A stretch of DNA of 64,000 bases from an uncultured virus (IMG/VR IMGVR_UViG_3300030419_006277) (taxonomy: Duplodnaviria; Heunggongvirae; Uroviricota; Caudoviricetes): the IMG/VR virus record IMGVR_UViG_3300030419_006277, positions 1-64,000 of that record, one strand, 5' to 3'. Shown piece after piece: positions 636 to 63,117 of the stretch; within the stretch, counting starts at the first letter, position 1, and every line of letters begins with the position of its first letter. Below the pieces are notes generated by a model, which searched no databases, was not told the DNA's origin, and saw only the letters and a program-made list of their open reading frames with translations. The translations under genes were made by a program, and so were the position numbers.

Positions 636-1154
636 TTACTTTATCCTATCTAAATTGAAGGAGAGGATTATTTTATCGTGGTTTGTGTTGTTAGGAGGAG
701 AGCGATGTAGGGCAAATGCATCGAAGAGAATTATGTCTCCTTCCTCTACTAGTAATTCAGGTGTGTCTTGGAATTCAGTCTTTATTTTTGGGTCTTTTAA
801 TCTGAGATAGTAGATACCCGATACTTCACAGTTGGAGGAGGAGTGATTATGGTAATCATGATATGAACCTGTATTTTTTCCATAGTATTGATACCATATA
901 GCGTTCATAAAATATTTATTACTTGTTACTTCTTCTATTTTTTGCTTTAGATATTTGTTATATAGTTCGCTGAGGTCTTTTGTTGCTTTGCTATTTCTAA
1001 ATGAGCCTTTAGTTATTATTGATTTAGGCGCTGACTTTTTACTTAATGCTGGTTCTATATATGATCCACTACTTTTGTCATGGAAAATATAATTTAGGAA
1101 TTTCCTTTTAATACGCCATCCAGGTTTTTGAACTTTGTAGATGGAAGGTTGCAT
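636..1154 (-). CDS. Putative 2OG-Fe(II) oxygenase (cyanophage type)
   Basis: HxH (YHNH), SGIYYL, EGDIILF..LH, K/R-IILSFN motifs. Confidence 0.8.
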   Translation of the reverse strand: MQPSIYKVQKPGWRIKRKFLNYIFHDKSSGSYIEPALSKKSAPKSIITKGSFRNSKATKDLSELYNKYLKQKIEEVTSNKYFMNAIWYQYYGKNTGSYHDYHNHSSSNCEVSGIYYLRLKDPKIKTEFQDTPELLVEEGDIILFDAFALHRSPPNNTNHDKIILSFNLDRIK

Positions 1155-2701: not shown

Positions 2702-3268
2702 TTAGAAAGGAATTTCGTCTTTGTCATAGAGGAATCGTCCTGTAATCGGGTCTATTTCTAGCCCTGTAATCGGATCAACTCGGCTTAAGCATTCATCTAA
2801 GCGGTCAAGATCTTTACCTAACTTGACCTTTTTCATGATGCTTTCTTTAGGGATTTTTCCAGTAGCTGGAGATAACCTATCTTTAACGAATTCATTAAAG
2901 GAGTTTTGTATTTCAGCTCCCCAGCACCCACCTGGGTCGATACTTGGGAGTTGTTCTAGGAGTTTGACTCGTGCCTTTGTAGCACCAACTGCGGCTGAGA
3001 AGTTACCTGCTTCCCTTGCGTCTAGTCGGTCACGTTTGAGGTCATTAAGGCAACTGTAGAACTCGAATTTAATGTCTCCTTCATCGAGTAGTTCAAGTAC
3101 AAGTACTTTCCCTTCTCTTACGTAAGACCGTGCTTGTTGAGCAGTCACGTTGTAAGTAGCAGCTAGATGATTGACGACCTCATTAGCTGGCCATCCTTTT
3201 GCAAGGAATTCTGCTGCTAGTTCTCGTCGTTCTTCTAGTTGTTGTTTAGTAGCTCGTTCGTTAGTCAT
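2702..3268 (-). CDS. Hypothetical protein with N-terminal HTH-like region
   Basis: LAKGWPANEVVNHLAATYNVTAQQARSYV helix-turn-helix pattern; DPITG x2 near the C-terminus. Confidence 0.65.
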   Translation of the reverse strand: MTNERATKQQLEERRELAAEFLAKGWPANEVVNHLAATYNVTAQQARSYVREGKVLVLELLDEGDIKFEFYSCLNDLKRDRLDAREAGNFSAAVGATKARVKLLEQLPSIDPGGCWGAEIQNSFNEFVKDRLSPATGKIPKESIMKKVKLGKDLDRLDECLSRVDPITGLEIDPITGRFLYDKDEIPF

Positions 3269-3459: not shown

Positions 3460-3977
3460 GCTGTTAAGTCTCCCTCTTCATATGAACTAGGAGTGCCATC
3501 AGATTTAGGAAGTTCATCGCTATGAATTCCTTCATAAATGAATTTTCCTTCTGTAGTTCCAGCTTCGCTTTTGGTTGACTCTTCCTCCTGATACATCATT
3601 GGGCGTTTGGTTAAGTTTGTACCTTTTGGTAGAGCCACAATTATGGATTCCTCTTTACTTTTAGTTGACTCTTCGTCGAGAATTTCTTGAGCTTCTTCTT
3701 TAATTGCTTTCTCTTCTCTTTCTATACTTTCTGTACTACGTTCTTTCATCCAATCAAGGTGTTTGATTAGTGATGTTTTCGCTTCGATAGTATCAATGAG
3801 TCGATGACGACTAACGACTACATTGTCTTTATCTTCTGGGTGTAGGCAGTCCATCTCCTCTTGTGCTGCACAGGCAGCGGCCTCAATAGTGGAATAAACT
3901 CCTTTAATCCAATAGCCGTTATCGTTTTTGTAGGGATTAACGACCACGAATACGTCTTGTGAAATTGGTTTAGTCAT
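3456..3977 (-). CDS. Acidic hypothetical protein (start at MTKPISQD)
   Basis: ATG at 3977 overlaps the end of the Zn-finger ORF; internal EESTKS repeated twice. Confidence 0.6.
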   Translation of the reverse strand: MTKPISQDVFVVVNPYKNDNGYWIKGVYSTIEAAACAAQEEMDCLHPEDKDNVVVSRHRLIDTIEAKTSLIKHLDWMKERSTESIEREEKAIKEEAQEILDEESTKSKEESIIVALPKGTNLTKRPMMYQEEESTKSEAGTTEGKFIYEGIHSDELPKSDGTPSSYEEGDLTA

Positions 3978-4912: not shown

Positions 4913-5091
4913 TGTGTCCCTCCTGTGTTTGCAAGTGTGCCTTTGACAAGCCGTATTTCCTTGTCTGTTCCAGAAGTTTTGGCGTCCCGCACTGCATTTT
5001 TAAAACATTGGTAACCCCCTGCGTAGGTAAACCGCTTGGCCAGAATGTGGTCACCCGAATATACAAGCCAGGCTGGGCATTCTTTTAGCAT
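4870..5091 (-). CDS. Hypothetical protein
   Basis: ORF in operon. Confidence 0.55.
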   Translation of the reverse strand: MLKECPAWLVYSGDHILAKRFTYAGGYQCFKNAVRDAKTSGTDKEIRLVKGTLANTGGTQWDLIHETAEQILP

Positions 5092-5600
5092 GGCTCTTGC
5101 ATGTGTAGGTGAGCGTTCTCTCGTTCTTTGTCGATGAACTTACAGATTTGAAGGAAGGCTGCTTCGATGTTGGCAGCTTCTGATACAGCTTTGTTGAATT
5201 CTTCGTCACTTTGATAATGTTCTCTAGTTAATCTGTTCTTACTTAGGAGTTTCTTTGCTTCTGTAAGTAGGGCTCTTGAATTCCAGAGGTCTTGAGAGTA
5301 GGCGATCACTTTCTCGTCGTTAGGTGTGAAGGTTGGCAGTGGTGGATTGCGCGAGAGCACTTCTGTCTGGGTCGGTATTGCTATTGGATAGTTTTCAATA
5401 ATGGTTTCAGCTTCTTGTGTAGTGAAGTTGTATACATGTTTTAGTTGATCGTGTACATCTTCCATCGTCCAATGTACGAATGGAGTAAAGGTCAAGTTGA
5501 GGATTTCCTGGGCTCTAGCAGAGCTTGGAGATCCAGTTAAGAGACTGCGGAGTAGTAGTTCTTCTCTCTTCAGTTCTTTTTGGTGTTCTTGATGTGACAT
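5085..5600 (-). CDS. Hypothetical protein (start at MSHQEH)
   Basis: ATG 2 nt after the upstream stop. Confidence 0.6.
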   Translation of the reverse strand: MSHQEHQKELKREELLLRSLLTGSPSSARAQEILNLTFTPFVHWTMEDVHDQLKHVYNFTTQEAETIIENYPIAIPTQTEVLSRNPPLPTFTPNDEKVIAYSQDLWNSRALLTEAKKLLSKNRLTREHYQSDEEFNKAVSEAANIEAAFLQICKFIDKERENAHLHMQEPC

Positions 5601-5602
5601 TT

Positions 5603-5830
5603 TTAATAAGGTGATTGAAAGTGGATTTCCCAGTCGGTCATATTTTCCCAAGGGGCAATGAAAGTTCTATTAGCTTCTTCACCAGTTGAAATAAATAAAA
5701 TTACGTTCAATTGATGAAGGGCCAAATTAATTTCAAAACCCAGGATTCTAAATTCACCACCTTCAGGTGTTGTGACGATTGCGCCTTTGAGATAATCAAT
5801 CCCAAATGATGAGTGAGGACTAAATTTCAT
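5603..5830 (-). CDS. Hypothetical protein
   Basis: ORF with ATGA overlap. Confidence 0.6.
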   Translation of the reverse strand: MKFSPHSSFGIDYLKGAIVTTPEGGEFRILGFEINLALHQLNVILFISTGEEANRTFIAPWENMTDWEIHFQSPY

Positions 5831-6300
5831 TTGATTTTTGGTCCTGAGAAAACGACAGAAGTTTTAGTGCGTAGGTGTGTTGCTTCTTCATGCCTAATTT
5901 CCTTATTCATGAGGTCTTTTAGATCCTTAGCAGCCCTTTGATGTGCTTCTCTTAGACCTTCAGTCATTACTGAATATTTATATTCTTTAGTTTGTCGAAT
6001 AGAAAACTTCATCTCTTCATCACTACTTTCTATGTAGCAGTCGGAAGGCTTTTCTACCTCTTCTAGTAGAACTAATAGTCTCTGTTTGAAATCAAGTCTG
6101 ATTTCCTCTTTCCGATCTGATAATAGTTTTTCTTGCTCAAGGATTGTTTGATATTCTCCAAAAAGTGCATCTTGTTCTTTAACTGGGTCAATCTCTACAG
6201 GTCTCCCAGTTAAATTTTTGATGAAAGCCTTGGAGTCAGGCTCACGTGCTGGAGAGTGGATGGATGGTGTTTTAGTTGTGCGTGGCATAGTTTTAACCAA
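5827..6300 (-). CDS. Hypothetical coiled-coil protein
   Basis: 157-aa ORF in operon. Confidence 0.65.
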   Translation of the reverse strand: MVKTMPRTTKTPSIHSPAREPDSKAFIKNLTGRPVEIDPVKEQDALFGEYQTILEQEKLLSDRKEEIRLDFKQRLLVLLEEVEKPSDCYIESSDEEMKFSIRQTKEYKYSVMTEGLREAHQRAAKDLKDLMNKEIRHEEATHLRTKTSVVFSGPKIK

Positions 6301-6565
6301 AATCGGAGTGGTAGTGGCGGCGTGTGCGAGCAGGATTAAATCCTGTTTTCTCTTCCACTATATCTGGTGATTCAAGTTGAGGAGAAGAGGGAAGTAACAA
6401 ACCGTAAGAATAAATATTTTCGACGGTTAATTCGATGTCCCATGTCTCACAAATTCTCTTTAGTAAGTCATTGGCATTAGCTCTCTCATAGAGATTTTCA
6501 CTGCTGTTAGCAGCTTCTACAATCTTCTTGAGTTTTGCTTTTAGTTGTGGGGTTGGAGTACTCAT
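6293..6565 (-). CDS. Hypothetical protein
   Basis: ORF starting 20 nt after array B hairpin. Confidence 0.6.
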   Translation of the reverse strand: MSTPTPQLKAKLKKIVEAANSSENLYERANANDLLKRICETWDIELTVENIYSYGLLLPSSPQLESPDIVEEKTGFNPARTRRHYHSDFG

Positions 6566-6584
6566 GATTCAGAAGAATGTTGAA

Positions 6585-6723
6585 GGTAGTTCTTAACCGT
6601 GGAGCTACCAAGCGTGTTGGGGTGAGCCGAAAGGCATAGAATCGGATTGAATTAAGATGCACAGCGACAAGCCAAGAAGAATCGAATTGAATAGGACTTA
6701 CACCAAAGGATGCCTATTCAATT
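6585..6723 (-). ncRNA. Candidate guide RNA B: 5' hairpin, 17 pentamer units (YNY-NN, mostly YTC/YTT), conserved CCCAACACGCTT and 3' hairpin
   Basis: 5-nt periodicity 6612-6696; 3' stem-loop GGTAGCTC-CACGGTTAA-GAACTACC; 11-bp inverted repeat 6685-6695/6713-6723; homologous to 7894-8021. Confidence 0.8.
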
Positions 6724-7231
6724 ACATATCAGGTGGATTTATCTTTGGTACCTCCCCACCATCTCTTTTAAGTTTTAATACCTGCTTCCTTGCCCCATCA
6801 GCAGCCGAGGCTATGAAGGCATGTCTCGCTTGATTGGTTTCAAGTTGAGTTTTCTCATAACCACTTAGATTGTCTTTGTCCACGCGAGTGAACATGTATT
6901 TAGTGTTCTTTCTATGAGATTTAAGACCTGAATAAGCACGTTGATTTAGATATTCAAGTGCCTCTCCGTCTGTTAATACATAGAGGTTACCTTTAATCTG
7001 TTTAATGACTAATGGCTTGTTAATTAATTCTCTAGCTTCTTGAAGCCATTCTCTAACTCTTATGAGTTTGAAATTAACAGCCTGACTCGACTCTGGTGAC
7101 ATGACATCTGCTTTTTTAAATAAGATGTCGAACATTTCTTCGACTTTATGAGAAGGGATAGTTTCACCCTTCTGTAAATCACGCCATGCAATGCCAGCAA
7201 TTTGGATTGGATAATCGTTTGGATTGATCAT
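6722..7231 (-). CDS. Uncharacterised partner protein of the RAMP gene
   Basis: 169 aa; ATGA overlap with the RAMP gene; lies between the two arrays. Confidence 0.75.
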   Translation of the reverse strand: MINPNDYPIQIAGIAWRDLQKGETIPSHKVEEMFDILFKKADVMSPESSQAVNFKLIRVREWLQEARELINKPLVIKQIKGNLYVLTDGEALEYLNQRAYSGLKSHRKNTKYMFTRVDKDNLSGYEKTQLETNQARHAFIASAADGARKQVLKLKRDGGEVPKINPPDM

Positions 7232-7866
7232 GAATCTACCTCCTCAATTTGTGTTACAGCAAAGCGTCCGTGGCTAGGTCTCCAAGTACCTAGACCTTCC
7301 GACTTCCCTGCCATGTTGGCGATCTTCCTCAGTTGACTTGGCTCCATGATTTCATCATCAAGCATTAATTCAAATTTGGCTTTCCACTCTGGGAAGTAAA
7401 CACGATTAACCCATACACCCCTACTGGTGAAGGCAGCGAGCGCAAGTTTAGGTGACTTGGAGTTGATCATTTCGATAGCATCTTTTGGCCCGTCATAATC
7501 AATCTCTGGGTTGTTTGTAACGACTACAGAACGCAGTACATCTTTACCTAATTTCCATTTAGTAGCTGCATTGCGTAAGCAGCGTTGGAAGTTAGCTCCT
7601 GGCAGGTAAGGAGTATCAAAGCCAACAAAGTCGACGCGGTTGTCGCCTTCATCAACTTCACAGACTCCTTCATTCTTCCAATAGCAGGAGTAGAGCCAGT
7701 CAAGGATGCGAACTGCTCTGTGTACATCATCAGTCTTAGCTTTACCCTTCTTATCAGTGAAGTGCTGCTTTTGCTTAGCCGCTTCACCTAGAGGGTCGCT
7801 GTACTGGACGTTGGAGAGAAGCAGACCGCCTCTTCCTTCGAGGTGGACTTCAAAGTTTCTAAACAT
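7228..7866 (-). CDS. Stand-alone RAMP-superfamily (Cas7/Csm3-like; Vipr-like) RNA-binding protein
   Basis: N-terminal strand FEVHLEGRGGLLLSN; PYLPGANFQRCLRNAA resembles the Cas7-group P.IPGSS.KG.LR motif; R.YFPEW; C-terminal G-rich loop GLGTWRPSHGRF. Confidence 0.8.
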   Translation of the reverse strand: MFRNFEVHLEGRGGLLLSNVQYSDPLGEAAKQKQHFTDKKGKAKTDDVHRAVRILDWLYSCYWKNEGVCEVDEGDNRVDFVGFDTPYLPGANFQRCLRNAATKWKLGKDVLRSVVVTNNPEIDYDGPKDAIEMINSKSPKLALAAFTSRGVWVNRVYFPEWKAKFELMLDDEIMEPSQLRKIANMAGKSEGLGTWRPSHGRFAVTQIEEVDS

Positions 7867-7893
7867 GGTGGTGGTTTTGGTGTGGTGTGTGGT

Positions 7894-8021
7894 TCAGTTC
7901 TTAACCGAGGAACTGATAAGCGTGTTGGGCTGAGTTGATCTGAGGTGAATTGAGAAGAGCCGATCCGTATAGAAGCGAAAGGAACTGAGTTGCAGCAGTT
8001 TTAAGTCATACTCAGGACTAT
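7894..8021 (-). ncRNA. Candidate guide RNA A: structured 5' leader, 15 pentamer units (HNC-NN, mostly YTC), conserved CCCAACACGCTT and 3' hairpin
   Basis: 5-nt periodicity 7920-7994 with C at triplet position 3 in all 15 units; 3' stem-loop TCAGTTC-CTCGGTTAA-GAACTGA. Confidence 0.8.
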
Positions 8022-8032
8022 TTTTGGTGTAG

Positions 8033-8290
8033 TCATGGCACTAATCCCTTTTTATCGAGATAATTAAGTAAGACTTGAGCAGCCTCTCCTGGTGGCCCAG
8101 GTTCTGTAGCTTCTGCCATAATTGCAAAGATGATCTTAGGATCTTTTCTAACTTGTTCTTCAACTATGGGGAAAGATATTTTGAAAATATTGTCATAGAT
8201 AGCGCGAGCATTCTCCATGTCCCCACGTTTAACACATGCCTCAGCTTCTTTGCGGCATACATCTAGGAAGTCAGCGTTAAGATCTTCCAT
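8033..8290 (-). CDS. Hypothetical protein
   Basis: ORF with TAATG coupling. Confidence 0.6.
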   Translation of the reverse strand: MEDLNADFLDVCRKEAEACVKRGDMENARAIYDNIFKISFPIVEEQVRKDPKIIFAIMAEATEPGPPGEAAQVLLNYLDKKGLVP

Positions 8291-8490
8291 TAGAACGTAA
8301 GATAAGGGTCATTTTTTGATAAAATCTCCCCATCCGAGACTTTTAACTGTCTAACTAAATAGGATTGTCCAAAGGATAGGGTGTCAACTACTTTGATTTG
8401 CCTATTCAGTTGATCTTCATTGAGTGTCTTGAGCTGTTCTAGTAGCTCTCCCCAGGTTTTTGTGTCGGTTGTAGTCATAGTTTCATCCAT
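8290..8490 (-). CDS. Hypothetical protein (TWGELLEQLKTLNEDQLN motif; start may be 8478)
   Basis: T(W/Y).ELL..L..L..EQL pattern familiar from small phage proteins. Confidence 0.6.
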   Translation of the reverse strand: MDETMTTTDTKTWGELLEQLKTLNEDQLNRQIKVVDTLSFGQSYLVRQLKVSDGEILSKNDPYLTF

Positions 8491-8684
8491 GGCATTACCC
8501 TTGGTTTCCCGTAGGCATGATGTTTAGCAGGGTTCTCTAGTGCGTCAGTTAATTCTTTACATAGAGAGACAAGAATAGTTCTTGCTTCATCATCATCAGG
8601 TAAGTCAGCCTTACCAATTAAATCTCTCAAACATGTGATTGTTTTAGTCCCTTTAAGTTCAATAACTAAATTTTCAAGATCCAT
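8475..8684 (-). CDS. Hypothetical protein
   Basis: ORF in operon. Confidence 0.55.
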   Translation of the reverse strand: MDLENLVIELKGTKTITCLRDLIGKADLPDDDEARTILVSLCKELTDALENPAKHHAYGKPRVMPWMKL

Positions 8685-8867
8685 CTATACCCCCTCCCCC
8701 TCTACTTTTTCTGATACTTCTATATCACATTTGTAGGTAGGATCGGTTTCATCCCACAGCTCCGAATACTTCCTCTGCTCATTGGCTATTCTTCTAGCTT
8801 CTTCAGCATCAGGAGCCATTATCTCAAAGCGATTGCTTTGTATAACATTTACTATGTAGGTAGTCAT
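8685..8867 (-). CDS. Hypothetical protein
   Basis: ORF in operon; ends in GEGV. Confidence 0.6.
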   Translation of the reverse strand: MTTYIVNVIQSNRFEIMAPDAEEARRIANEQRKYSELWDETDPTYKCDIEVSEKVEGEGV

Positions 8868-9118
8868 ACCCCCTCCCCTTTGCTATTAATTAATAGGTCT
8901 CTAATTCTCTTTATCAGCCGCACTGTTAATATATTTATCGGGAAGCCTGAATCTTTGTCAAACCTTAAACGTAGTTCTAAGCCTTGCAGTAATTCAATTA
9001 ATTCTGCATCTGTGTGGCCCAATACCTTAATCTCTTCTTGATTCATTGGTCTGGTTGTGCGGTGTACTTTCTTCCTACCGTGGGTTTTGATAGGTGGCAA
9101 GGTTGGTTGTTGAGTCAT
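8864..9118 (-). CDS. Hypothetical protein
   Basis: ORF in operon; ends in GEGV. Confidence 0.55.
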   Translation of the reverse strand: MTQQPTLPPIKTHGRKKVHRTTRPMNQEEIKVLGHTDAELIELLQGLELRLRFDKDSGFPINILTVRLIKRIRDLLINSKGEGV

Positions 9119-9282
9119 AGGTGAAAGCTCCCTTCGTTTAGTTTTCTTGCTGCCCTGCTGGTAGCTACCGTGGCAGCATCGGCTTTTGACATGCGCTGTG
9201 CTAACTGCTCCAACTGGAGACGGGCGGACTCTTTAGCGGTCTCAGGGCTAGTACTTAGCCATTCATGCTTTGACTGCTTCAT
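9115..9282 (-). CDS. 55-aa hypothetical protein (MKQSKHEWLSTSPE...)
   Basis: Manual translation; ATGA overlaps on both sides. Confidence 0.55.
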   Translation of the reverse strand: MKQSKHEWLSTSPETAKESARLQLEQLAQRMSKADAATVATSRAARKLNEGSFHL

Positions 9283-9404
9283 TGCTCCCCCTCGAATAGC
9301 TCCATAGCTAGGGCCACTTGCTCATCATCTGTGAGCGACGGGTGCTGCTCTTTTACAAGCTCTAGAAGATCCTCTAACCGTTCGGAATTTGTTTCGTAGG
9401 ACAT
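9279..9404 (-). CDS. 41-aa hypothetical protein (MSYETNSERLEDLLE...)
   Basis: Manual translation; ATGA coupling. Confidence 0.55.
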   Translation of the reverse strand: MSYETNSERLEDLLELVKEQHPSLTDDEQVALAMELFEGEQ

Positions 9405-9488
9405 GGCGGTGTTGTGTACAAATTAAAGTTAAGGTGCTTTGAAACACTGTCCATAGTGTGTTCACAATGTGTTATATACCCCCTCCCC

Positions 9489-9824
9489 CTAGTCGTAGCT
9501 GTCATATAGGGCCGCTTTACCATCCCATGGCTCGATCAATCCAAAATATTTAATAAAGGCATACTCTTGCCCGTTATCCTTCCAAGTCTTACGGGCTTTC
9601 CTGAATACTGAGCCTCTAGGGATATCAACAGGAATTTTTAGACCGGCCTGCCCATAGCCATCGTGTTCCAGTAATTGCGAGTGGACCTCTTGAAACCAGA
9701 CTGAGGCTTTAGAGAGTCGCACAACCTTATAGAAGTGCGGCAGGTTAACGGTTGACCCTGCGTCGCAATAGCAGATCTGGCCAATTTTGAAGGTTTTAGA
9801 CTTGGTTTGTGTGTTGGTGGTCAT
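9489..9824 (-). CDS. Hypothetical early protein
   Basis: FKIGQI.Y.....T....FYKVVR pattern seen in phage early proteins. Confidence 0.65.
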   Translation of the reverse strand: MTTNTQTKSKTFKIGQICYCDAGSTVNLPHFYKVVRLSKASVWFQEVHSQLLEHDGYGQAGLKIPVDIPRGSVFRKARKTWKDNGQEYAFIKYFGLIEPWDGKAALYDSYD

Positions 9825-9864
9825 GGTTAGTTAGTGCGGAATGATTAAGAAATAATTAAGAGAA

Positions 9865-10002
9865 CTATTCCTCGAAATTGTTCTCTAGGTCGTATTTATA
9901 TTGCTCATACCCTCCTGGGTATTCTTCATTGATTCGCTCAATTAGGGCTAGTTCTTCTTGTTCTCTTTCGTAGTTGTTTAGCATCATGTTGTGATAGTCC
10001 AT
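9865..10002 (-). CDS. 45-aa acidic hypothetical protein (MDYHNMMLNNYERE...)
   Basis: Manual translation; starts 3 nt after the upstream stop. Confidence 0.5.
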   Translation of the reverse strand: MDYHNMMLNNYEREQEELALIERINEEYPGGYEQYKYDLENNFEE

Positions 10003-10005
10003 GTT

Positions 10006-10713
10006 TTAAACCTCCATTAGTACACGGTTTGCAGTTGCCCCATGCGCGTTTATAACAACATCAGCCGCAGAGCCTGAGCAAAGGCCACAAGTGGCGCAAT
10101 TGGTCTTTTGACCCTTCTCAATGCTTGCCATGCAATGCACAGAGTTGGTGGGATCTTCTACGCTTTCATGTTTGACTAGAAAGGTTTTCCAATCGTGGAA
10201 ATTAGCTTCTAGTTTGTCTATTACATCTTCACAGGATGCTTGCACAATGCCTCTAAATTCCTGCGCGAATGCTTCCCGCCATTGATGCGTATAGCCTGTA
10301 TGTGTTCTTGCATGATTTAACATCTTGCGCCATATCTCAACATTAAACATTGCGGGATCCCCTGCGCTGCCCATCCTTAGGGCGTGGCCGTCGAATAGAT
10401 GCCAGTCGTTGCCTATATGTGGATAGTTGCCGCGCTTGTAGCAATTCCAGACACTTAAAGGCGCATGATACCAACGCACATAGCAAGAACCCTTGCGGCT
10501 TCCATGGTGTGGGCAGTTGCCACAAACTGATTTACCGCGTTCATCCTTGAATGCTTCGTTTGGTTTGACGTCAGTTCGAAGGATCCAGCTCTGAAGCATT
10601 GAACCAGTTTTGTCATTAGCTGATACCTTGTCAAAGCCTGTAACTATTAGGACAATTGGCGCCCCATCGTATGGGCTGGTGCCTTCTGCAATGATTCTGC
10701 CGTTCGTGTTCAT
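10006..10713 (-). CDS. Cys-rich phage protein, GP88-like / possible Fe-S (radical-SAM-related) fold
   Basis: NDKTG; CGNCP......CY; LRMGSAGDP; TGYTHQW; C..S...CATCGLC; AHG motifs; start set by leader motif. Confidence 0.65.
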   Translation of the reverse strand: MNTNGRIIAEGTSPYDGAPIVLIVTGFDKVSANDKTGSMLQSWILRTDVKPNEAFKDERGKSVCGNCPHHGSRKGSCYVRWYHAPLSVWNCYKRGNYPHIGNDWHLFDGHALRMGSAGDPAMFNVEIWRKMLNHARTHTGYTHQWREAFAQEFRGIVQASCEDVIDKLEANFHDWKTFLVKHESVEDPTNSVHCMASIEKGQKTNCATCGLCSGSAADVVINAHGATANRVLMEV

Positions 10714-10746
10714 TGGTTTAATTGGTGATGTGTGCAAGTGATGGGG

Positions 10747-10932
10747 TTAAAGGATGCGGGGCCTCTTAGTTTCTAGTTGATCTTTTAAAGATTCATCATC
10801 TTGGCTCATCTCCCATAAATCAAGTTGATCTAGTTCGTTTACTGTCTCTTTAATTGTTGCCGTAGCTGGGAATAGTTGGTCAAAAAGAGAATTGACGAAT
10901 TCGTGAGACTCTTTAGAAAGTTTCTTTGTCAT
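10747..10932 (-). CDS. Hypothetical protein (start at MTKKLSK)
   Basis: Leader ACCAATTAAACCAATG. Confidence 0.55.
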   Translation of the reverse strand: MTKKLSKESHEFVNSLFDQLFPATATIKETVNELDQLDLWEMSQDDESLKDQLETKRPRIL

Positions 10933-10961
10933 TGGTTTAATTGGTTGAGAGTGTGGGCAAT

Positions 10962-10990
10962 AAAAAACAAGCTCTATTAAAAGAACTTGC
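10962..10990 (-). terminator. Rho-independent terminator after the first leftward gene
   Basis: GCAAGTTCT-TTTAAT-AGAGCTTGT followed by TTTTT. Confidence 0.55.
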
Positions 10991-11228
10991 AAAGGAAAAA
11001 ATAATTGTCTTTGTCATGTCCTGCGTGGACTATCTCAGCCTGGCCTAGGCTCCATTCTCTAATTAAATTATTAGCAGCATTCAAAGCCTCTTCTAATGGT
11101 TCTAAAGTTCCGCCACTTGCTGCGGTTGACTTTCTGAATGTCACATCATGGCATTTGTGCTCAGCTTTCCACTTGTTAGCGGTTCTTTTGACTGTAATGA
11201 CTGGCAAGGTTGTTTGAATCTTGGTCAT
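10977..11228 (-). CDS. Hypothetical protein, first gene of the leftward early region
   Basis: ORF just downstream of a sigma70-like promoter. Confidence 0.65.
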   Translation of the reverse strand: MTKIQTTLPVITVKRTANKWKAEHKCHDVTFRKSTAASGGTLEPLEEALNAANNLIREWSLGQAEIVHAGHDKDNYFFLCKFF

Positions 11229-11252
11229 GGGTGCGGTGCGCTGTATGTCTTA

Positions 11253-11281
11253 AATATATAAAGACGGGCTTATATAAGCAA
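11253..11281 (-). promoter_or_regulatory. Sigma70-like early promoter
   Basis: TTGCTT-17 nt-TATATT, about 25 nt upstream of ATG 11228. Confidence 0.6.
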
Positions 11282-11716
11282 TGTATGTAGTTAATAAGTT
11301 TACACTCAGTCACAAAAGCTAGTTATTTAGGCTGAATTAATTTCCACAGTCTTTGCCCCTGCCGTTCTAGTGCGTCTCTATCTCTTGGCGGGCGGTGGAG
11401 AAGGGACACAGAAAAACCTCTTAAAGCTGTGCATTTAGTGGGAAAAAAGACAAGAAAAAGACATATTTTGACATAAAACAGATAAAACTAGAAAAATATT
11501 GATTTTAAAGCGCGTGCGCGTGGGCTGTGACTCATCCGCGACAGTTCAAACCATCAAAAAACGGCCAAACGTGGCGCAAACCTTGCATGATGCGGGCTGT
11601 TTGGGTCAATCGGGCCGGTTGTCGGAGCTGTTTCGGTCGGTATGTCAAGACAAAAGGGCAAATTAGTTGCAAAGCTTCACATAAAGTCGGCGCCAGTTCG
11701 CCAAACCGTCGGTAGT

Positions 11717-11730
11717 AGAACATATGTACT
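11717..11730 (-). promoter_or_regulatory. Cyanobacterial LexA-box match AGTACATATGTTCT
   Basis: Exact match to RGTACNNNDGTWCB in the divergent non-coding region. Confidence 0.45.
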
Positions 11731-11825
11731 ATCTTTTCAGCGAAAAAAGAGCATAAAACGGGCCAAAAGTCAAATGTTAAGCACTTTGTAAAGTGTTAAG
11801 CGTAATATTTCTTTTTTTTCCTCCC

Positions 11826-11843
11826 AATGTAAAGTTTTGTAAC
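11826..11843 (-). promoter_or_regulatory. HLR1 (RpaB-binding) type direct repeat GTTACAAA-AC-TTTACATT
   Basis: Exact match to (G/T)TTACA(T/A)(T/A)-N2-(G/T)TTACA(T/A)(T/A). Confidence 0.55.
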
Positions 11844-11968
11844 CCTCCGCCTGATAGCTCTTCGAATTTTTTCCCAAAAATGGGGTTTTTAAAGGCTCGG
11901 TAGGGTAAATCGTCTCAGCAAATGTACAGGAACTAAAATTAAATTTATAGCCTTAAAAATTAATAGAA

Positions 11969-13375
11969 GTGCCGTTAGGAATCCCAATTACGGAGAAGGA
12001 AATACTCGCACGACAGATGGGTGTCTCTCCACAAGAACTTGAATATATGGGAAGGTGGGAACCTCGCCGTAATGCAGCTCAAAAAGCAGCAAAATTCCTT
12101 AAAGATGCAGCAATTCTTGCCGGAACTGGAGCATTAGCTTATCAAGGTTATAAAGCATTACAAGATGGCAGAAATCAACCCGGTTCTGACACTACAGGGG
12201 GCGTTAGTGGAGGGACAACTCCAACTCCAAGTCCAAGTCCCGGCGACGGTGGGGGTTCACCTTCTGTAGATAGTGCAAAACCAAGTGGAGATCAGGCTGT
12301 TAGACAACAATTATTGAGTAAAGCAACAGTAAATAGAGAAAAAGGTGGTCCTTTAGCACGTAGAACAAATAGAGGTTCAGCTATAGCGTCAACGCCGTCA
12401 AGAGCTGTAACTGCTCCGGCTGATTCGTCTTCTGCACTTTCCGCTGCTGATGATGAGTATGTAAATTACGGTTCTGTTGGAGTACCTATTGCAACTAGGA
12501 ATAAGAATCGTCCAGGATTAACTGAAGATCTTTATACCGGATTGAGGGCTGAAAATCCTTTAACTACTGGGGTTGTAGCAACTGCTGTAACTAAAGATGG
12601 CCGACCAATTCGAGCATTAGGCGGTGGCGGTGGTGCCTTAACATTCCCAGCTCAATATCAGACTCCTTTTCAAAGAATGGCATATGGAGGTCCTTTTGGG
12701 CTATCTACAAAAGCGGCGATGACTCCACGATTCTGGGAGATGGGTGGAGGCGCACCTCCTGGATGGGCTTCCGGTCTTGGTGGAACTTTAGGGCATGCTG
12801 CGGAAGGTGTTATTGGTTTAGTTCAGCCTGAATTAATTCCAGTTTTAGGTGCCGGTGAGTTTATTGGTAATGTTGTAAGTCATATTCCTCAAATTGCAGG
12901 CGCAGGGGCAAGTATGGGAGTACGCGCCCTTGAACAAGGTGTAATTGGTGGATTAACTGCTTCAGAAAGGGCACTGACTGATGCTTTAAATGTAGCTTCT
13001 ATTGCGGTACCTACAGCAAAAGCTGCTGGTCAACTTACAAGACGTGCCGGTGATCGAGTATTTGATTTAGGTCAATCTACCCGACGAATTCATGATCAAT
13101 ACATAGTTCCTCCAGTTCGTGGGGCCGCAAGACAACTTAGGCAGTGGGATACAGAAGGCAGATATTTATATGATCAGGTTGCTCCTCAGTTGGCTGCTAG
13201 AGCTGCTGCTGATTATGAGAGAGGAATCATTAAGCCTGTTGTTGGTTCTATGAGAAATGCACAAAAGGCTGCTTTGAATGAGGTAGTTCAGAAATTCCTT
13301 CCAGATGGTTCAAGACATCCAGATTTACCTCCGGGTGAAGATGATGCTTTTAGAGATCCGTGGGGTAATTACTAA
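11969..13375 (+). CDS. Gly/Ala-rich putative internal virion/ejection protein
   Basis: 468 aa; low complexity; hydrophobic N-terminal helix; first rightward gene. Confidence 0.65.
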   Translation: MPLGIPITEKEILARQMGVSPQELEYMGRWEPRRNAAQKAAKFLKDAAILAGTGALAYQGYKALQDGRNQPGSDTTGGVSGGTTPTPSPSPGDGGGSPSVDSAKPSGDQAVRQQLLSKATVNREKGGPLARRTNRGSAIASTPSRAVTAPADSSSALSAADDEYVNYGSVGVPIATRNKNRPGLTEDLYTGLRAENPLTTGVVATAVTKDGRPIRALGGGGGALTFPAQYQTPFQRMAYGGPFGLSTKAAMTPRFWEMGGGAPPGWASGLGGTLGHAAEGVIGLVQPELIPVLGAGEFIGNVVSHIPQIAGAGASMGVRALEQGVIGGLTASERALTDALNVASIAVPTAKAAGQLTRRAGDRVFDLGQSTRRIHDQYIVPPVRGAARQLRQWDTEGRYLYDQVAPQLAARAAADYERGIIKPVVGSMRNAQKAALNEVVQKFLPDGSRHPDLPPGEDDAFRDPWGNY

Positions 13376-47659: not shown

Positions 47660-48463
47660 TTAGATTAGACTCCAACTTCTCCACCACTTGGTTATTACAT
47701 ACTTATTATTTTGCACTGGTGGCAATGCTTCATGCATTGTTTTATAGTTTGGGACTCCGTTACGATATAAGTTATTCCAGGCTAACAACATACCTTCTTT
47801 CGGTTTTACTTTTAACTTAAGGTGTTTGAAATAGGTTTCACCACCTTCCTCTACGTCGTTTAAGTAGATCATACTTGTCCAAGTTCTTTGTCCCATCCAT
47901 TCGCAATAAGTTTTACATTCTTTAATTGCTAAAGGTGGGAAAAAATCATAATGTTCTTTGTAAAATTCTCCAGGTAAATACTTTTGCGCTTGCATAACTT
48001 CTCCGAGAAATGGGCGCAAGTCCAGTATGTCTGCAAGTTTTCTGTCTACATCTAAGTAAAAAGGATTGTCAAAATAGTGCAAGTCAGCGGTTGAGCTGGT
48101 TCGATAATCTGAGACATGGCACGTATCATTAGTATCTGAAACTGTAGATTTTCTTAGATTCTTATCTATAATCTCTCGTAATTTTTCACATTCTTCTTTA
48201 GTTAGAAAATTATCATATGAGTAAAGCTGAGTAAAAGGATAATATATTCTTTTCGCATCAGGATTTTTTGTTATTGCATTGTTATAAAACTCTTTATATT
48301 TGATTCTTTTTGGCGAAGGTTTAAAAGCGCATAATTCTATTAATTGATTAATATCACTATCTTCAAGTTTATAAAGTTCTTTGAATGTTCTAATTGTTTG
48401 TGTTTTACTTACGCCGCCTACTGCGGCTCTCATGAATTCTAAAGCAACATTACTATCTATCAT
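47660..48463 (-). CDS. Prolyl 4-hydroxylase-like 2OG-Fe(II) oxygenase
   Basis: RTSS; Y.PG.FYKEHYD; QRTWT.MIYLNDVEEGGET.F; HEALP...KY..TKW. Confidence 0.9.
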   Translation of the reverse strand: MIDSNVALEFMRAAVGGVSKTQTIRTFKELYKLEDSDINQLIELCAFKPSPKRIKYKEFYNNAITKNPDAKRIYYPFTQLYSYDNFLTKEECEKLREIIDKNLRKSTVSDTNDTCHVSDYRTSSTADLHYFDNPFYLDVDRKLADILDLRPFLGEVMQAQKYLPGEFYKEHYDFFPPLAIKECKTYCEWMGQRTWTSMIYLNDVEEGGETYFKHLKLKVKPKEGMLLAWNNLYRNGVPNYKTMHEALPPVQNNKYVITKWWRSWSLI

Positions 48464-61361: not shown

Positions 61362-62006
61362 ATGAAGGACGGGTTAACTTATGCCTTATTCCCTACTCCA
61401 TTACATCACAACAATATTGGGTATGACTATGAGCTTAAACTTTCTGATTTATGCCCTTGTTATGATTCTACTATTGGGCCAGAATCCCATGACAAGTGTA
61501 ATGGTTTAATTACGAGAGATCAAAATTATCTACTTAAACAGGAGAATCTTCTTTTAAGGCAAAAATTAGAAGAAGTTATAGAGAAATATTTACATGAGCA
61601 TTTAAAATTAAATTCTAAAATAGGTATAAGACATCAATGTAGCTGGGGGTTACTTCATAAAAGAGGTCACTATTCTCCAAAACATTACCATCGCAATTCT
61701 TGGCTATCTGGTATTTATTATTTTCAGGTGAATTCTGATAGTGGCGATTTCGAAGTTACGGCAAGACCACCTTATGGATGGACTTGTAATTCGATAGCTC
61801 CTTTTGACGCTATCGATACGTATAATTCGTTAAATAGTCGAAGTACTACATTTAAACCAAAAAGAGGGGATGTATATTTGTTCCCTTCTCATTTAGAGCA
61901 TCATAGTTATATAAACAATAGTGACATTGATCGCGTATGTGTGAGTTTCAACTATACTTTAACTGGTTCTTGGGGATCTATGGGTGATCGAATCACTCTA
62001 AATTAA
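61362..62006 (+). CDS. Putative 2OG-Fe(II) oxygenase (TIGR02466-like)
   Basis: LFPTP; H.H.NSWLSGIYY; P..GD.YLFPS.L.H; R.CVSFN. Confidence 0.85.
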   Translation: MKDGLTYALFPTPLHHNNIGYDYELKLSDLCPCYDSTIGPESHDKCNGLITRDQNYLLKQENLLLRQKLEEVIEKYLHEHLKLNSKIGIRHQCSWGLLHKRGHYSPKHYHRNSWLSGIYYFQVNSDSGDFEVTARPPYGWTCNSIAPFDAIDTYNSLNSRSTTFKPKRGDVYLFPSHLEHHSYINNSDIDRVCVSFNYTLTGSWGSMGDRITLN

Positions 62007-62635
62007 TGGAACTTTTACCTTTATTTGCCTCTAATGTATTCAAAGTATGTATAGAAGAGGATACCGATTCTCTTCTTAATGAAGAGTCTTTTAGTAATTC
62101 TGTTGAACAAGATAGACAGGAAGGTCTTTACAGTGTTGGGTGCTTAGACAAAGCAAATCAAAATATAAGAGTTTTAGACCGCCATCCTGAAGTAGCACGG
62201 GTATTGCTAGATAAATGGATGATTATTGCAAGAGAGGTTCTTAATTATAATTGTAAATTTGTTCTTACTACGTCTTGGATAACTAAAAATTATAAAGGTA
62301 TGAGTTCTCAGGAACATCATCATAAGAATAGTTTTTATTCTGGGATTTACTATTTTGATGATTATGATGAAAATGTAGGAAAGCTTATATTCAGCAGTCC
62401 TTTAGCAACCTTTCCAGATTTTTTAATAGAACCAACTGAATACCATATAAAGAACTGCCCGGCTTGGATACATATTCCAAAAGCAAAAGAACTGGTGCTT
62501 TTTCCTAGTTATCTGAATCATCAAGTACTACCTCATGGTAGTGATAAGCCAAGGAGATCTTTAGCTTTTAATATCGTTCCTACAGGAATTTATGGGATAG
62601 GTGATTCTAAGTTGGATACTAAATGGCTCTCATGA
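62006..62635 (+). CDS. Putative 2OG-Fe(II) oxygenase (TIGR02466-like)
   Basis: H.HKNSFYSGIYY; LVLFPSYL.H.V; R.SLAFN. Confidence 0.85.
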   Translation: MELLPLFASNVFKVCIEEDTDSLLNEESFSNSVEQDRQEGLYSVGCLDKANQNIRVLDRHPEVARVLLDKWMIIAREVLNYNCKFVLTTSWITKNYKGMSSQEHHHKNSFYSGIYYFDDYDENVGKLIFSSPLATFPDFLIEPTEYHIKNCPAWIHIPKAKELVLFPSYLNHQVLPHGSDKPRRSLAFNIVPTGIYGIGDSKLDTKWLS

Positions 62636-63117
62636 AAATAATCCCTGACTTTTTACCTGAAGACTATTTTGCAAGCATAGAAAAGGATCTTGTATGGAAT
62701 CACCAATTTCCATACTATTTATTAGATAAATGCAATTCATCTCAAACAGATGATAGTCAGTGGATGATGAGTCATACAGGATATATAGAAGATACTGCTA
62801 GAACTGATCTATATACTGGAATGTTACGAGCTATACACATGCTTCCAGATTTTAGAACCTTAATTAGATTAAAAGCTAATTTTTATCCACAAACTACTGA
62901 GATGGTTGAACATGCTCGTCATGTTGATTTCGATTTCTCTCATCATGGAGCAATTCTTTCTTTAAATACTTGCGATGGATTCACAAGATTAGAAGATGGT
63001 ACAAAAGTAGAGAGTGTAAGAAATCGATTATTAATTTTTGATGGTTCGACTATGCATAATTCTTCTACTACTACCGATGCTAAAGGCAGGTTTAATATAA
63101 ATATTAATTATTTATGA
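62623..63117 (+). CDS. Putative 2OG-Fe(II) oxygenase
   Basis: LIRLKAN; HVD; NTCDGFT; NRLLIFDG...H; RFNININY. Confidence 0.85.
   Translation: MALMKIIPDFLPEDYFASIEKDLVWNHQFPYYLLDKCNSSQTDDSQWMMSHTGYIEDTARTDLYTGMLRAIHMLPDFRTLIRLKANFYPQTTEMVEHARHVDFDFSHHGAILSLNTCDGFTRLEDGTKVESVRNRLLIFDGSTMHNSSTTTDAKGRFNININYL

What the first reader, a model, noticed from the sequence alone, without database searches (positions are those of the whole stretch)
7894..8021. Array A: 15 pentamers with invariant C at triplet position 3
Minus strand: TGC-AA CTC-AG TTC-CT TTC-GC TTC-TA TAC-GG ATC-GG CTC-TT CTC-AA TTC-AC CTC-AG ATC-AA CTC-AG CCC-AA CAC-GC. Position 3 is C in 15/15 and position 1 is a pyrimidine in 13/15, while NN varies freely. 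That is unlike a slipped microsatellite, and period 5 excludes codon structure. The 5' leader ATAGTCCTGAGTATGACTTAAAAC forms an AGTC/GACT stem whose loop (CTGAGT) can pair with ACTCAG in units 1-2, a possible pseudoknot or processing element.
Basis: partly seen in the sequence, partly recalled or inferred. Interest (0 to 1): 0.85.

Follow-up and report, generated by a model that had tools for sequence, protein, structure and literature searches.

The report
Cyanophage VIPR guide RNA, G-free anchor
The five-base rhythm is the guide-RNA tract of a VIPR system (a CRISPR-related, RNA-guided DNA silencer first described in 2026) carried by a marine cyanophage; it fixes YUC instead of the published GGY, and its sister guide matches the integrase gene of an element integrated in a Prochlorococcus genome.

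Summary
C recurs every 5 nt for 15 units on the minus strand (+ strand G at 7922..7992). This is the longest periodic run in the window, and 0 of 200 simulations reached it.

It is not a pseudoknot element. It is a VIPR guide RNA (vrRNA), and the gene directly downstream (7228-7866, minus) is a Vipr homolog (PDB 36pp 'SUSP1 Vipr protein', E 1.7e-10 alone and 5.3e-13 as a profile).

The locus reads vrRNA-A, vipr, a 169-aa accessory ORF, then a second vrRNA-B (6586-6720).

In 29 distinct units from this phage and nine close relatives, the fixed triplet is Y-U-C: position 3 is a pyrimidine in 96% of units. The two following bases are near-random (1.93 and 1.96 bits). Array-A homologs with identical flanks carry different NN and differ in length by 10 and 20 nt.

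Under the published 1-nt-skip rule, guide B matches 27 of 28 bases, in frame and with the wobble base skipped, in a tyrosine-recombinase gene. That gene belongs to a T7-like element lying beside tRNA-Met in a Prochlorococcus contig.

No target was found for guide A. The strand of the RNA is inferred, not shown. Verdict: a new variant of a known kind.

The parts
7920..7999 (-). vrRNA-A repeat tract: 16 pentamer units (Y-T-C + NN). Thirteen are guide units (7930-7994). The last two units (CCC-AA, CAC-GC) are shared with array B and belong to the tail.
   Evidence: NN hypervariable between identical flanks in L031/L032
7894..7929 (-). vrRNA-A conserved 3' tail: CCCAACACGCTT followed by a hairpin (arms 7910-7916 and 7894-7900, loop CTCGGTTAA).
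   Evidence: identical core in array B; 4 of 7 stem pairs show compensatory changes in 20 sequences
7998..8021 (-). vrRNA-A 5' leader with a small AGTC/GACT hairpin.
   Evidence: conserved in L031/L032/L051; no covariation, function unknown
7228..7866 (-). vipr gene (212 aa), a Cas7-like RAMP that would coat the vrRNA with one protomer per pentamer.
   Evidence: PDB 36pp_D SUSP1 Vipr E 1.7e-10 / profile 5.3e-13; phrog_4652 E 3.7e-26; 127 phage records by tblastn; G-loop LGTWRP against GDWRP; low-confidence model hits Csm3/Cas7 chains
6722..7231 (-). 169-aa ORF overlapping the vipr stop codon: a candidate vipr-accessory protein (vap) by position.
   Evidence: conserved at the same place in all 12 relatives checked; 50% identity to L005 1209-1727; no similarity to the accessory genes of VpaE1 or LittleE; no family hit
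6612..6696 (-). vrRNA-B repeat tract: 17 units with a pyrimidine at position 3 (14 C, 3 T). Fourteen are guide units (6622-6691).
   Evidence: natural target match 27/28
6586..6621 (-). vrRNA-B conserved 3' tail (same core as A; the stem covaries, GTAGCTC/GAACTAC).
6688..6720 (-). vrRNA-B 5' leader hairpin (TAGGCATCC...AAGTCCTA), nearly identical to the leader upstream of vipr in the sister clade.

Best explanation
Array A is the guide tract of a vrRNA in a VIPR (Viral Interference Programmable Repeat) system carried by an 87-kb psbA-bearing marine cyanophage.

The RNA is most likely read on the vipr-sense (minus) strand. It has a short 5' leader, then 13 guide pentamers, then an invariant 3' tail hairpin.

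By analogy with the solved SUSP1 complex, one Vipr protomer binds each pentamer. It buries the fixed triplet, which here is Y-U-C instead of G-G-Y, and presents the two variable bases. The exposed dinucleotides pair with double-stranded DNA that carries the same dinucleotides separated by one skipped base. In practice these are codon positions 1-2, with the wobble base skipped. Binding there silences transcription.

The phage carries two such guides. Guide B is aimed at the tyrosine-recombinase (integrase) gene of a T7-like element integrated next to tRNA-Met in Prochlorococcus, so the system probably serves phage-against-mobile-element competition. The target of guide A is unknown.

Shown here: the periodicity, Vipr homology, locus architecture, hypervariable NN between fixed flanks, register-preserving indels, tail covariation, the 27/28 target match, and the absence of self-targets.

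Inferred: that the RNA is made, its strand and ends, filament formation, silencing, and the biological outcome.
For: (1) Vipr homology. The ORF 7228-7866(-) matches the SUSP1 Vipr chain 36pp_D at E 1.7e-10, and at 5.3e-13 with a 7-sequence profile. tblastn finds it in 127 phage records, including Felixounavirus, Gordonia and Mycobacterium phages. Inspection of three of those loci shows textbook GGT-NN or GGC-NN arrays flanking the gene.

(2) Published definition. vrRNAs are 9-16 tandem pentamers of a fixed triplet plus a variable NN, followed by an invariable 3' tail. They lie up- and downstream of vipr and vap (paper 10.64898/2026.04.26.720920, Results read). The window has the order array+tail, vipr, 169-aa ORF, array+tail.

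(3) Logo. In 29 distinct units of the window's subtype, position 1 is Y in 90%, position 2 is T 70% / G 20%, and position 3 is C 85% / T 11%. N4 and N5 have entropy 1.93 and 1.96 bits. In the sister clade (55 units) position 3 is Y in 94%, and 52 of 58 units share one register relative to the tail.

(4) Array-A homologs in L031 and L032 (97% Vipr identity) have the same leader and tail but different NN. Their tract lengths are 48, 58 and 68 nt, all equal to 3 mod 5.

(5) Tail hairpin: 4 of 7 pairs show compensatory double changes.

(6) Target. One 9-unit seed of guide B gave 5 loci. L021 matches 27 of 28 guide bases at skip 1, in frame (NDLGVCINNDYLGS), with every skipped base at wobble. Nine of the 10 unseeded bases match, which is about 3e-5 per hit by my arithmetic. 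Against that element, all other 49 guides score at or below 0.75 at every skip rule, guide B is not among the top scores at skips 0, 2 or 3, and shuffled guides stay at or below 0.79.

(7) The targeted motif is the conserved xDxGVCxNNxxLGx of a 233-member recombinase family.

(8) There is no self-target in the phage genome at skips 0-2.

(9) Strand. Position 3 stays a pyrimidine as in GGY. The Y3 and G2 contacts R179, W178 and R138 are invariant. Both G1 contacts (H17, D177; paper 10.64898/2026.04.26.720927 section 5) are replaced by S and T in all five cyanophage Viprs aligned, but kept in all three GGY-type Viprs. The array-then-tail order on the vipr strand matches all three reference loci.
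Against: No transcript evidence exists.

The strand is not proven. The invariant base is G on the opposite strand, and every alternative consensus named in the discovery paper keeps a G (NNNGG, YNNNG, NNNNG).

The wobble-pair strand test is inconclusive. In the window's clade there are 3 G.U against 4 A.C (13 stems). In the sister clade there are 2 G.U against 0 A.C (22 stems).

Guide A, the array actually reported, has no convincing target. The best hits are 20/26, 19/26 and 21/26 from four seeds, which is what seeded chance hits give.

The target evidence rests on one site. A related guide hits the same site at 23/28, but that is not independent.

The AlphaFold models are poor (pLDDT 48.1 and 42.7). 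The accessory ORF has no detectable similarity to known vap genes. The integrase call for the target rests on a weak PHROG hit (E 6.7e-4), on distant PF00589-bearing relatives, and on its position beside a tRNA.
Confidence: 0.87

Rival explanations
1. It is a VIPR guide, but the RNA is transcribed from the + strand, antisense to vipr. The fixed triplet is then G-A-R, and the conserved hairpin serves as a 5' handle instead of a 3' tail.
For: The invariant base is G on that strand (15/15), like every consensus named in the discovery paper. A C.A mismatch at one stem position, in 3 of 13 distinct stems, would be a G.U pair on the + strand. The predicted DNA target is the same on either reading, so the 27/28 hit does not discriminate.
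Against: Position 3 would be a purine in about 90% of units, although R179 of the pyrimidine pocket is kept. G1 would be the best-conserved base, although both residues that read G1 in SUSP1 are replaced. All three reference loci have arrays sense to vipr with the tail 3' of the array. In the sister clade, T-runs follow units on the sense strand, and there are 2 G.U against 0 A.C.
Confidence: 0.1
2. It is an unstructured C-rich, G-poor 5' UTR tract bound by a different oligomeric RNA-binding protein. Candidates are a Rho-type rut site made of YC dinucleotides, or a TRAP-like ring reading a triplet every 5 nt. Either would regulate the downstream gene.
For: The tract is 34% C and 12% G, and it folds no better than shuffles. 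YC dinucleotides recur. From memory, TRAP reads triplets separated by 2-3 nt spacers.
Against: The phage carries psbA, so its host is a cyanobacterium. From memory, cyanobacteria are reported to lack Rho. This model does not explain hypervariable NN between fixed flanks, the tandem units that each carry a covarying tail, the adjacent Vipr gene, or the 27/28 coding match under the 1-nt skip rule.
Confidence: 0.02
3. It is a decayed pentanucleotide microsatellite with no function. The periodicity is then a relic of slippage.
For: Indels between homologs are multiples of 5. Array B has an internal duplication at an offset of 40 nt. Some units recur (CTCAG three times).
Against: Uniform decay would not leave one position at 15/15 beside two positions at maximal entropy. 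The same asymmetric logo recurs in 29 and 55 distinct units from two clades. The tract always sits in a fixed register before a covarying hairpin next to vipr.
Confidence: 0.01

Closest known systems
VIPR type II of Escherichia phage SUSP1 (Vipr + vrRNA + vap1). Sources: bioRxiv 10.64898/2026.04.26.720920 (Results, Discussion and three methods sections read), 10.64898/2026.04.26.720927 (sections 5-6 read), 10.64898/2026.10.15.759431 (abstract and section 6 read).
   Same: A small Cas7-like protein homologous by sequence. Pentamer guides made of 3 fixed and 2 variable bases. A unit count of 13-16. An invariant structured 3' tail. One guide upstream of vipr plus its accessory gene and one or more downstream. 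The 1-nt-skip match in a coding sequence with the wobble base skipped. A recombinase of an integrated element as the target. No self-targeting.
   Different: The fixed triplet is Y-U-C with no G. The G1-reading residues H17 and D177 are S and T. There is a 17-aa insertion after helix 1 and a shorter thumb. The tail is a simple hairpin, and no pseudoknot was demonstrated. The accessory protein is unrelated in sequence. The host is a marine picocyanobacterium. Nothing here has been tested experimentally.
Non-canonical VIPR repeat clusters: GAC/NN, CAC/NN, WGT/NN, TGH/NN. These form 21 clusters in bioRxiv 10.64898/2026.10.21.760802 (passages read).
   Same: A period-5 array with a non-GGY fixed triplet next to a Vipr-like fold. 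CAC/NN and GAC/NN also end in C.
   Different: YTC/NN is not among the examples named in the text. The full list is in Fig. S10A, which I could not see. That text mentions no cyanophage or Prochlorococcus.
Class 1 CRISPR Cas7 (Csm3) backbone filaments.
   Same: A RAMP protein that coats a guide RNA at a fixed step and flips out bases periodically. The low-confidence model's best structural matches are Csm3 chains (E 2.6e-3, prob 0.99).
   Different: There is no CRISPR array, no cas1/cas2 and no other cas genes in the window. The step is 5 nt with 3 bases hidden, rather than 6 nt with 1 base flipped.

Membership tests
VIPR system | Vipr protein: a small stand-alone RAMP with a G-loop and thumb, homologous to described Viprs | tested here: met
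   36pp_D SUSP1 Vipr E 1.7e-10 / profile 5.3e-13. G-loop G-x-G-x-W-R-P and thumb R138 aligned and invariant. The fold model is poor (pLDDT 48.1), but its top hits are Cas7/Csm3.
VIPR system | Tandem pentanucleotide repeats (9-16 units) with a fixed triplet alternating with a hypervariable NN | tested here: met
   16 and 17 units in the window. 29 distinct units give entropy 0.78 bits at position 3 against 1.93 and 1.96 at N4 and N5.
VIPR system | Fixed triplet is GGY, or one of the published variants NNNGG, YNNNG or NNNNG, on the vipr strand | tested here: not met
   On the vipr strand the triplet is Y-T-C. G occupies 1% of position 1, 20% of position 2 and 2% of position 3. Only the pyrimidine at position 3 is retained. 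This makes it a variant, not the canonical code.
VIPR system | Invariable structured 3' tail after the repeat tract | tested here: met
   A shared 36-nt tail in A and B. The hairpin has compensatory changes in 4 of 7 pairs. A pseudoknot as in the SUSP1 clade was not demonstrated.
VIPR system | Minimal locus of vipr plus vap, with vrRNAs in the flanking intergenic regions, carried by a virus | tested here: met
   Gene order. Phage hallmark genes and psbA. The vap is assigned by position and conservation only.
VIPR system | Targets follow the 1-nt-skip rule, lie in coding DNA with the skip at wobble, and there is no self-targeting | tested here: met
   Met for guide B: 27/28, in frame. No self-hit at skips 0-2. 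For guide A: not found, best 21/26.
VIPR system | vrRNA is expressed as a ~100-nt RNA and co-purifies with Vipr; the RNP silences a matching reporter | not testable with these tools
   This needs small-RNA sequencing, a pull-down and a reporter assay.
Rho utilisation (rut) site | The host encodes Rho; a C-rich, G-poor unstructured tract precedes a termination zone | not tested
   Composition fits. But the host is a cyanobacterium (psbA; target in Prochlorococcus), and from memory cyanobacteria are reported to lack Rho. I did not search a host genome for rho.

The most novel reading that the evidence does not exclude
Marine cyanophages run a G-free VIPR code. Exchanging the two residues that read G1 (H17 to S, D177 to T) went with a switch of the anchor from GGY to YUC. 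If so, the anchor triplet is an evolvable 'lock' that keeps one phage's guides from being used by a rival's Vipr.

In the ocean this system would be aimed at the integrase of temperate T7-like elements in Prochlorococcus. That would be RNA-guided phage-against-element warfare in the most abundant phototroph, and indirect evidence that such integrated elements are active enough to be worth silencing.
Probability: 0.45. Interest if true: 0.75.

Novelty: new variant of a known kind. Interest (0 to 1): 0.62.

Why it matters
VIPR was described only in 2026, and its experimental work is all in E. coli and Pseudomonas systems that use GGY anchors.

This locus extends it to cyanophages of the open ocean. 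It offers a natural protein-RNA pair in which the anchor has lost every G, alongside two specific changes in the RNA-contact residues. That is a direct handle on how the anchor is read and whether orthogonal VIPR systems can be built.

The predicted target is a conserved motif of an integrase beside tRNA-Met in a Prochlorococcus genome. This repeats the recombinase-targeting logic shown for SUSP1, and it points to competition between lytic cyanophages and integrated elements, which is a poorly documented part of marine phage ecology.

I found no mention of cyanophage, Prochlorococcus or marine systems in the main text of the four VIPR preprints held or in the one supplement PDF I could read. 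A full-text search for 'vrRNA' together with 'cyanophage' returned 0 papers. The supplementary tables of loci and Figs. S17 and S10A were not visible to me, so such loci may already be listed there.

Tried and rejected
- **Rfam and tRNA scans.** Rfam at gathering thresholds gave 0 matches in the window. ARAGORN found 0 tRNAs.
- **Folding.** Neither strand of either intergenic region folds better than shuffles (z -0.37, -0.75, -0.41). A large structured RNA or riboswitch was therefore dropped.
- **Promoter and terminator scan of 5000-12500.** Counts were at shuffle level, and nothing useful lay next to the arrays.
- **Rho rut and TRAP-like ideas.** These were my first guesses. I dropped them once the Vipr hit appeared.
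- **Close DNA relatives.** There were none in the annotated phage set. The 23-base tail core had 0 hits in the viral contigs.
- **Guide A target search.** Seeds of units 1-9, 5-13, 3-11 and 3-10 gave 1, 1, 0 and 6 loci. The best full-guide scores were 20/26, 19/26 and 21/26. One hit family reads VFNPPYAR in the antisense frame, which from memory resembles methyltransferase motif IV. Three other hit families read LAYGG[LF][KN]T in the sense frame. None is significant.
- **Guide B, second seed (units 6-14).** Two loci at 21/28, neither in an open frame.
- **Wobble-pair strand test.** Inconclusive.
- **Expression.** No RNA holder was listed. Read laying was not used, because the four holders are kept as contigs only.
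- **Structure prediction.** Vipr gave pLDDT 48.1 and the accessory ORF 42.7. The accessory model was not searched. Only the Foldseek PDB search was run on the Vipr model.
- **Accessory ORF.** No Pfam, PHROG or NCBIfam family.
- **Not attempted.** Complex prediction and the search of protein representatives.

Full report
**Observation**

There are fifteen consecutive pentamers with C at position 3, a pyrimidine at position 1 in 13 of 15, and T at position 2 in 11 of 15.

On the + strand this is G at 7922, 7927 ... 7992. It is the longest periodic single-base run in the window over periods 2-12. In 200 first-order Markov simulations, no G or C run at period 5 exceeded 10.

A second, more degenerate array lies 1.3 kb away, in the next intergenic gap on the same strand (sequence). 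In the whole 87,026-bp genome these are the two strongest period-5 G signals: 15/15 and 12/15, against 11/15 at best elsewhere.

**A repeated element**

The two gaps share a 36-nt block directly 3' of the arrays on the minus strand. It consists of CCCAACACGCTT and then a hairpin with loop C(T/A)CGGTTAA. The stem differs between the copies in a compensatory way.

The block occurs only twice in the genome. The region has no Rfam match and no tRNA. It folds no better than shuffles on either strand. The pentamer tract is therefore predicted to be single-stranded between two small hairpins.

**What the neighbours are**

The window is a tailed phage, with terminase, major head protein and tail fibres. 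The genome also carries DNA polymerase, primase and psbA, so it is a cyanophage.

The 212-aa ORF directly downstream of array A belongs to phrog_4652, of unknown function. Its homologs are found in 127 phage records. It matches one solved structure, 36pp 'SUSP1 Vipr protein', at E 1.7e-10, and at 5.3e-13 with a profile of seven cyanophage sequences.

A full-text search led to four 2026 preprints on VIPR systems. I read the Results, Discussion and three methods sections of the discovery paper. I also read sections 5-6 of the cryo-EM paper, section 6 of the competition paper, and passages of a language-model survey.

According to these papers:
- vrRNAs are 9-16 tandem pentamers in which a fixed GGY alternates with a hypervariable NN, followed by an invariable structured 3' tail.
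- One Vipr protomer binds each repeat and hides GGY.
- The NN pairs read double-stranded DNA with one skipped base per unit, usually the codon wobble position.
- Loci are vipr plus an accessory gene, with vrRNAs in the flanking intergenic regions.

**Reference loci**

I inspected three annotated phages that hold the homolog. All have textbook arrays on the vipr strand, each followed by a tail:
- GGT-NN in Escherichia phage VpaE1.
- GGC-NN in Gordonia phage Trine.
- GGC-NN in Mycobacterium phage LittleE.

**Comparative evidence in cyanophages**

Protein-guided searches gave two sets of relatives. There are 11 viral-contig loci at 72-74% Vipr identity. There are 22 metagenome loci, nine of them at 88-97% identity.

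In both clades vipr is followed by a conserved ORF of 169-172 aa that overlaps its stop codon. After that come two to six tandem units, each a pentamer tract plus a tail hairpin.

In 29 distinct units of the window's subtype:
- Position 1 is Y in 90%.
- Position 2 is T in 70% and G in 20%.
- Position 3 is C in 85% and T in 11%.
- N4 and N5 have 1.93 and 1.96 bits of entropy.

The sister clade (55 units) gives Y-K-Y, with a pyrimidine at position 3 in 94% of units. In that clade, 52 of 58 units share one register relative to the tail.

The array-A homologs of L031 and L032 have the window's leader and tail but unrelated NN. Their tract lengths are 48 and 58 nt against 68 nt in the window, all equal to 3 mod 5.

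The tail hairpin shows compensatory double changes in 4 of 7 pairs across 20 sequences.

**Strand**

The invariant G of canonical vrRNAs lies on the vipr strand. Here that strand carries C. I favour the vipr strand (about 0.85-0.9 given that this is a VIPR guide) for four reasons.

1. Mapped onto G1-G2-Y3, the cyanophage triplet keeps exactly the pyrimidine at position 3.
2. R179 (Y3 pocket), W178 and R138 are invariant. H17 and D177, the two residues that hydrogen-bond G1 in SUSP1, are S and T in all five cyanophage Viprs aligned, and H and D in all three GGY-type Viprs.
3. The order of array then tail on the vipr strand matches every reference locus.
4. In the sister clade, T-runs follow several units on that strand.

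Against this reading:
- The discovery paper's alternative consensuses all retain G.
- The G.U against A.C tally in stems is inconclusive: 3 against 4 in the window's clade and 2 against 0 in the sister clade.

The language-model preprint does report GAC/NN and CAC/NN classes.

**Targets**

The NN positions are the same base pairs on either strand reading, so the predicted DNA target does not depend on the strand.

Fifty guides had no match above shuffled controls in the phage's own genome or in the relatives at skips 0-2.

For guide B, a 9-unit seed returned five loci. One of them, L021, matches 27 of 28 guide bases. The match is in frame, and every skipped base falls at the wobble position. 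Nine of the ten unseeded bases match.

Against that 19.7-kb record only guide B scores 0.96. All other guides score at or below 0.75 there at every skip rule, guide B does not reach the top five at skips 0, 2 or 3, and shuffled guides stay at or below 0.79. A related guide from L037 hits the same site at 23/28.

The targeted 450-aa ORF has these properties:
- A weak integrase match (phrog_1, E 6.7e-4).
- 233 homologs. Sources name three of them as Cyanobacteriota, Cyanobium and 'integrase', and the distant ones carry PF00589.
- The 14 codons read by the guide cover the family's conserved motif xDxGVCxNNxxLGx.

The rest of the record encodes a T7-type terminase, a T7 tail-fibre N-terminal domain, an internal virion protein and a DNA ligase.

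In the species-representative genome collection, the 13-unit site occurs once, in a 78.9-kb contig titled Prochlorococcus sp. AG-363-M21. There a tRNA-Met lies 158 nt upstream of an integrase ORF of the same length, and cellular genes precede the tRNA. This is the layout of an element integrated at a tRNA gene. It parallels the published targeting of a satellite's excision recombinase by SUSP1.

For guide A, four seeds gave nothing better than 21/26. Its target is unknown.

**Limits**

- Expression, strand and ends of the RNA are inferred, not observed.
- Both structure models are poor because the alignments hold only seven close sequences. Even so, the Vipr model's best PDB matches are Csm3/Cas7 chains.
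- The accessory ORF has no known family and no similarity to the reference accessory genes.
- Supplementary tables and figures that list VIPR loci and motif classes were not available to me.

**Verdict**

The finding is a genuine VIPR guide RNA in a cyanophage. It is a known kind of system (2026 preprints) in a variant form, with a G-free YUC anchor and matching changes in the protein. Its sister guide has a plausible natural target in a Prochlorococcus integrated element. This scan has met VIPR systems before on other genomes.

Noticed in passing
L018:2250-2300 and 3712-3745; L017:3100-3116 and 3225-3240: In Mycobacterium phage LittleE and Gordonia phage Trine, the vrRNA units are separated by tRNA T-arm-like GGTTCGA(G/C/T)TCC segments. 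These may be processing signals. Several arrays there lie under annotated 'hypothetical protein' CDSs (LittleE gene 35, Trine gene 40), which are probably mis-annotations.
   Followed up: no
L030:1300-1345 and equivalent spacers in L031-L037: Between tandem cyanophage vrRNAs there is a conserved spacer, CTAAG(C/T)CCTACGTG(G/A)T(T/G)ATG(G/A)(T/C)TGGGA, often followed by TTTTTAA right before the next array. The Felixounavirus locus L016 has a similar GG(G/A)TTTTTAA just 5' of its arrays. It could be a promoter, a terminator or a processing site shared across VIPR types.
   Followed up: partly
L052:1749-3336 (named Prochlorococcus contig) and L029 (G001): A T7-like podovirus gene set with a divergent tyrosine recombinase sits directly beside tRNA-Met, downstream of cellular genes, in a Prochlorococcus single-cell genome contig. 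This looks like an integrated podovirus-type element. From memory, prophages are rarely reported in this genus.
   Followed up: partly
L037:560-664 compared with window 6622-6660: The guide upstream of vipr in L037/L038 shares a run of units with the window's downstream guide B, and it hits the same integrase site offset by three codons. Guide segments therefore seem to move between array positions.
   Followed up: partly
window 6640-6700 (minus strand): Array B contains an internal near-duplication of about 14 nt (TTCAAT(T/C)CGATTCT) at an offset of 40 nt, which is 8 units. This suggests growth of arrays by unit-register duplication.
   Followed up: no
window 636-1154, 47660-48463, 61362-63117: There are at least five 2OG-Fe(II) oxygenase or endonuclease-V-like (phrog_81/61/274) genes in one phage. 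The genome also has a cAMP-phosphodiesterase-like gene (2022-2453), and psbA and Hsp20 outside the window (L015:5164-6255 and 7953-8378).
   Followed up: no
L003-L012, about 150 nt upstream of vipr: In the sister clade the gene upstream of the first vrRNA ends in ...EIPF, a tail like that of single-strand DNA-binding proteins. The window's phage has a different neighbour (an 85-aa ORF), and its SSB-like gene lies elsewhere (L014:7716-8423).
   Followed up: no
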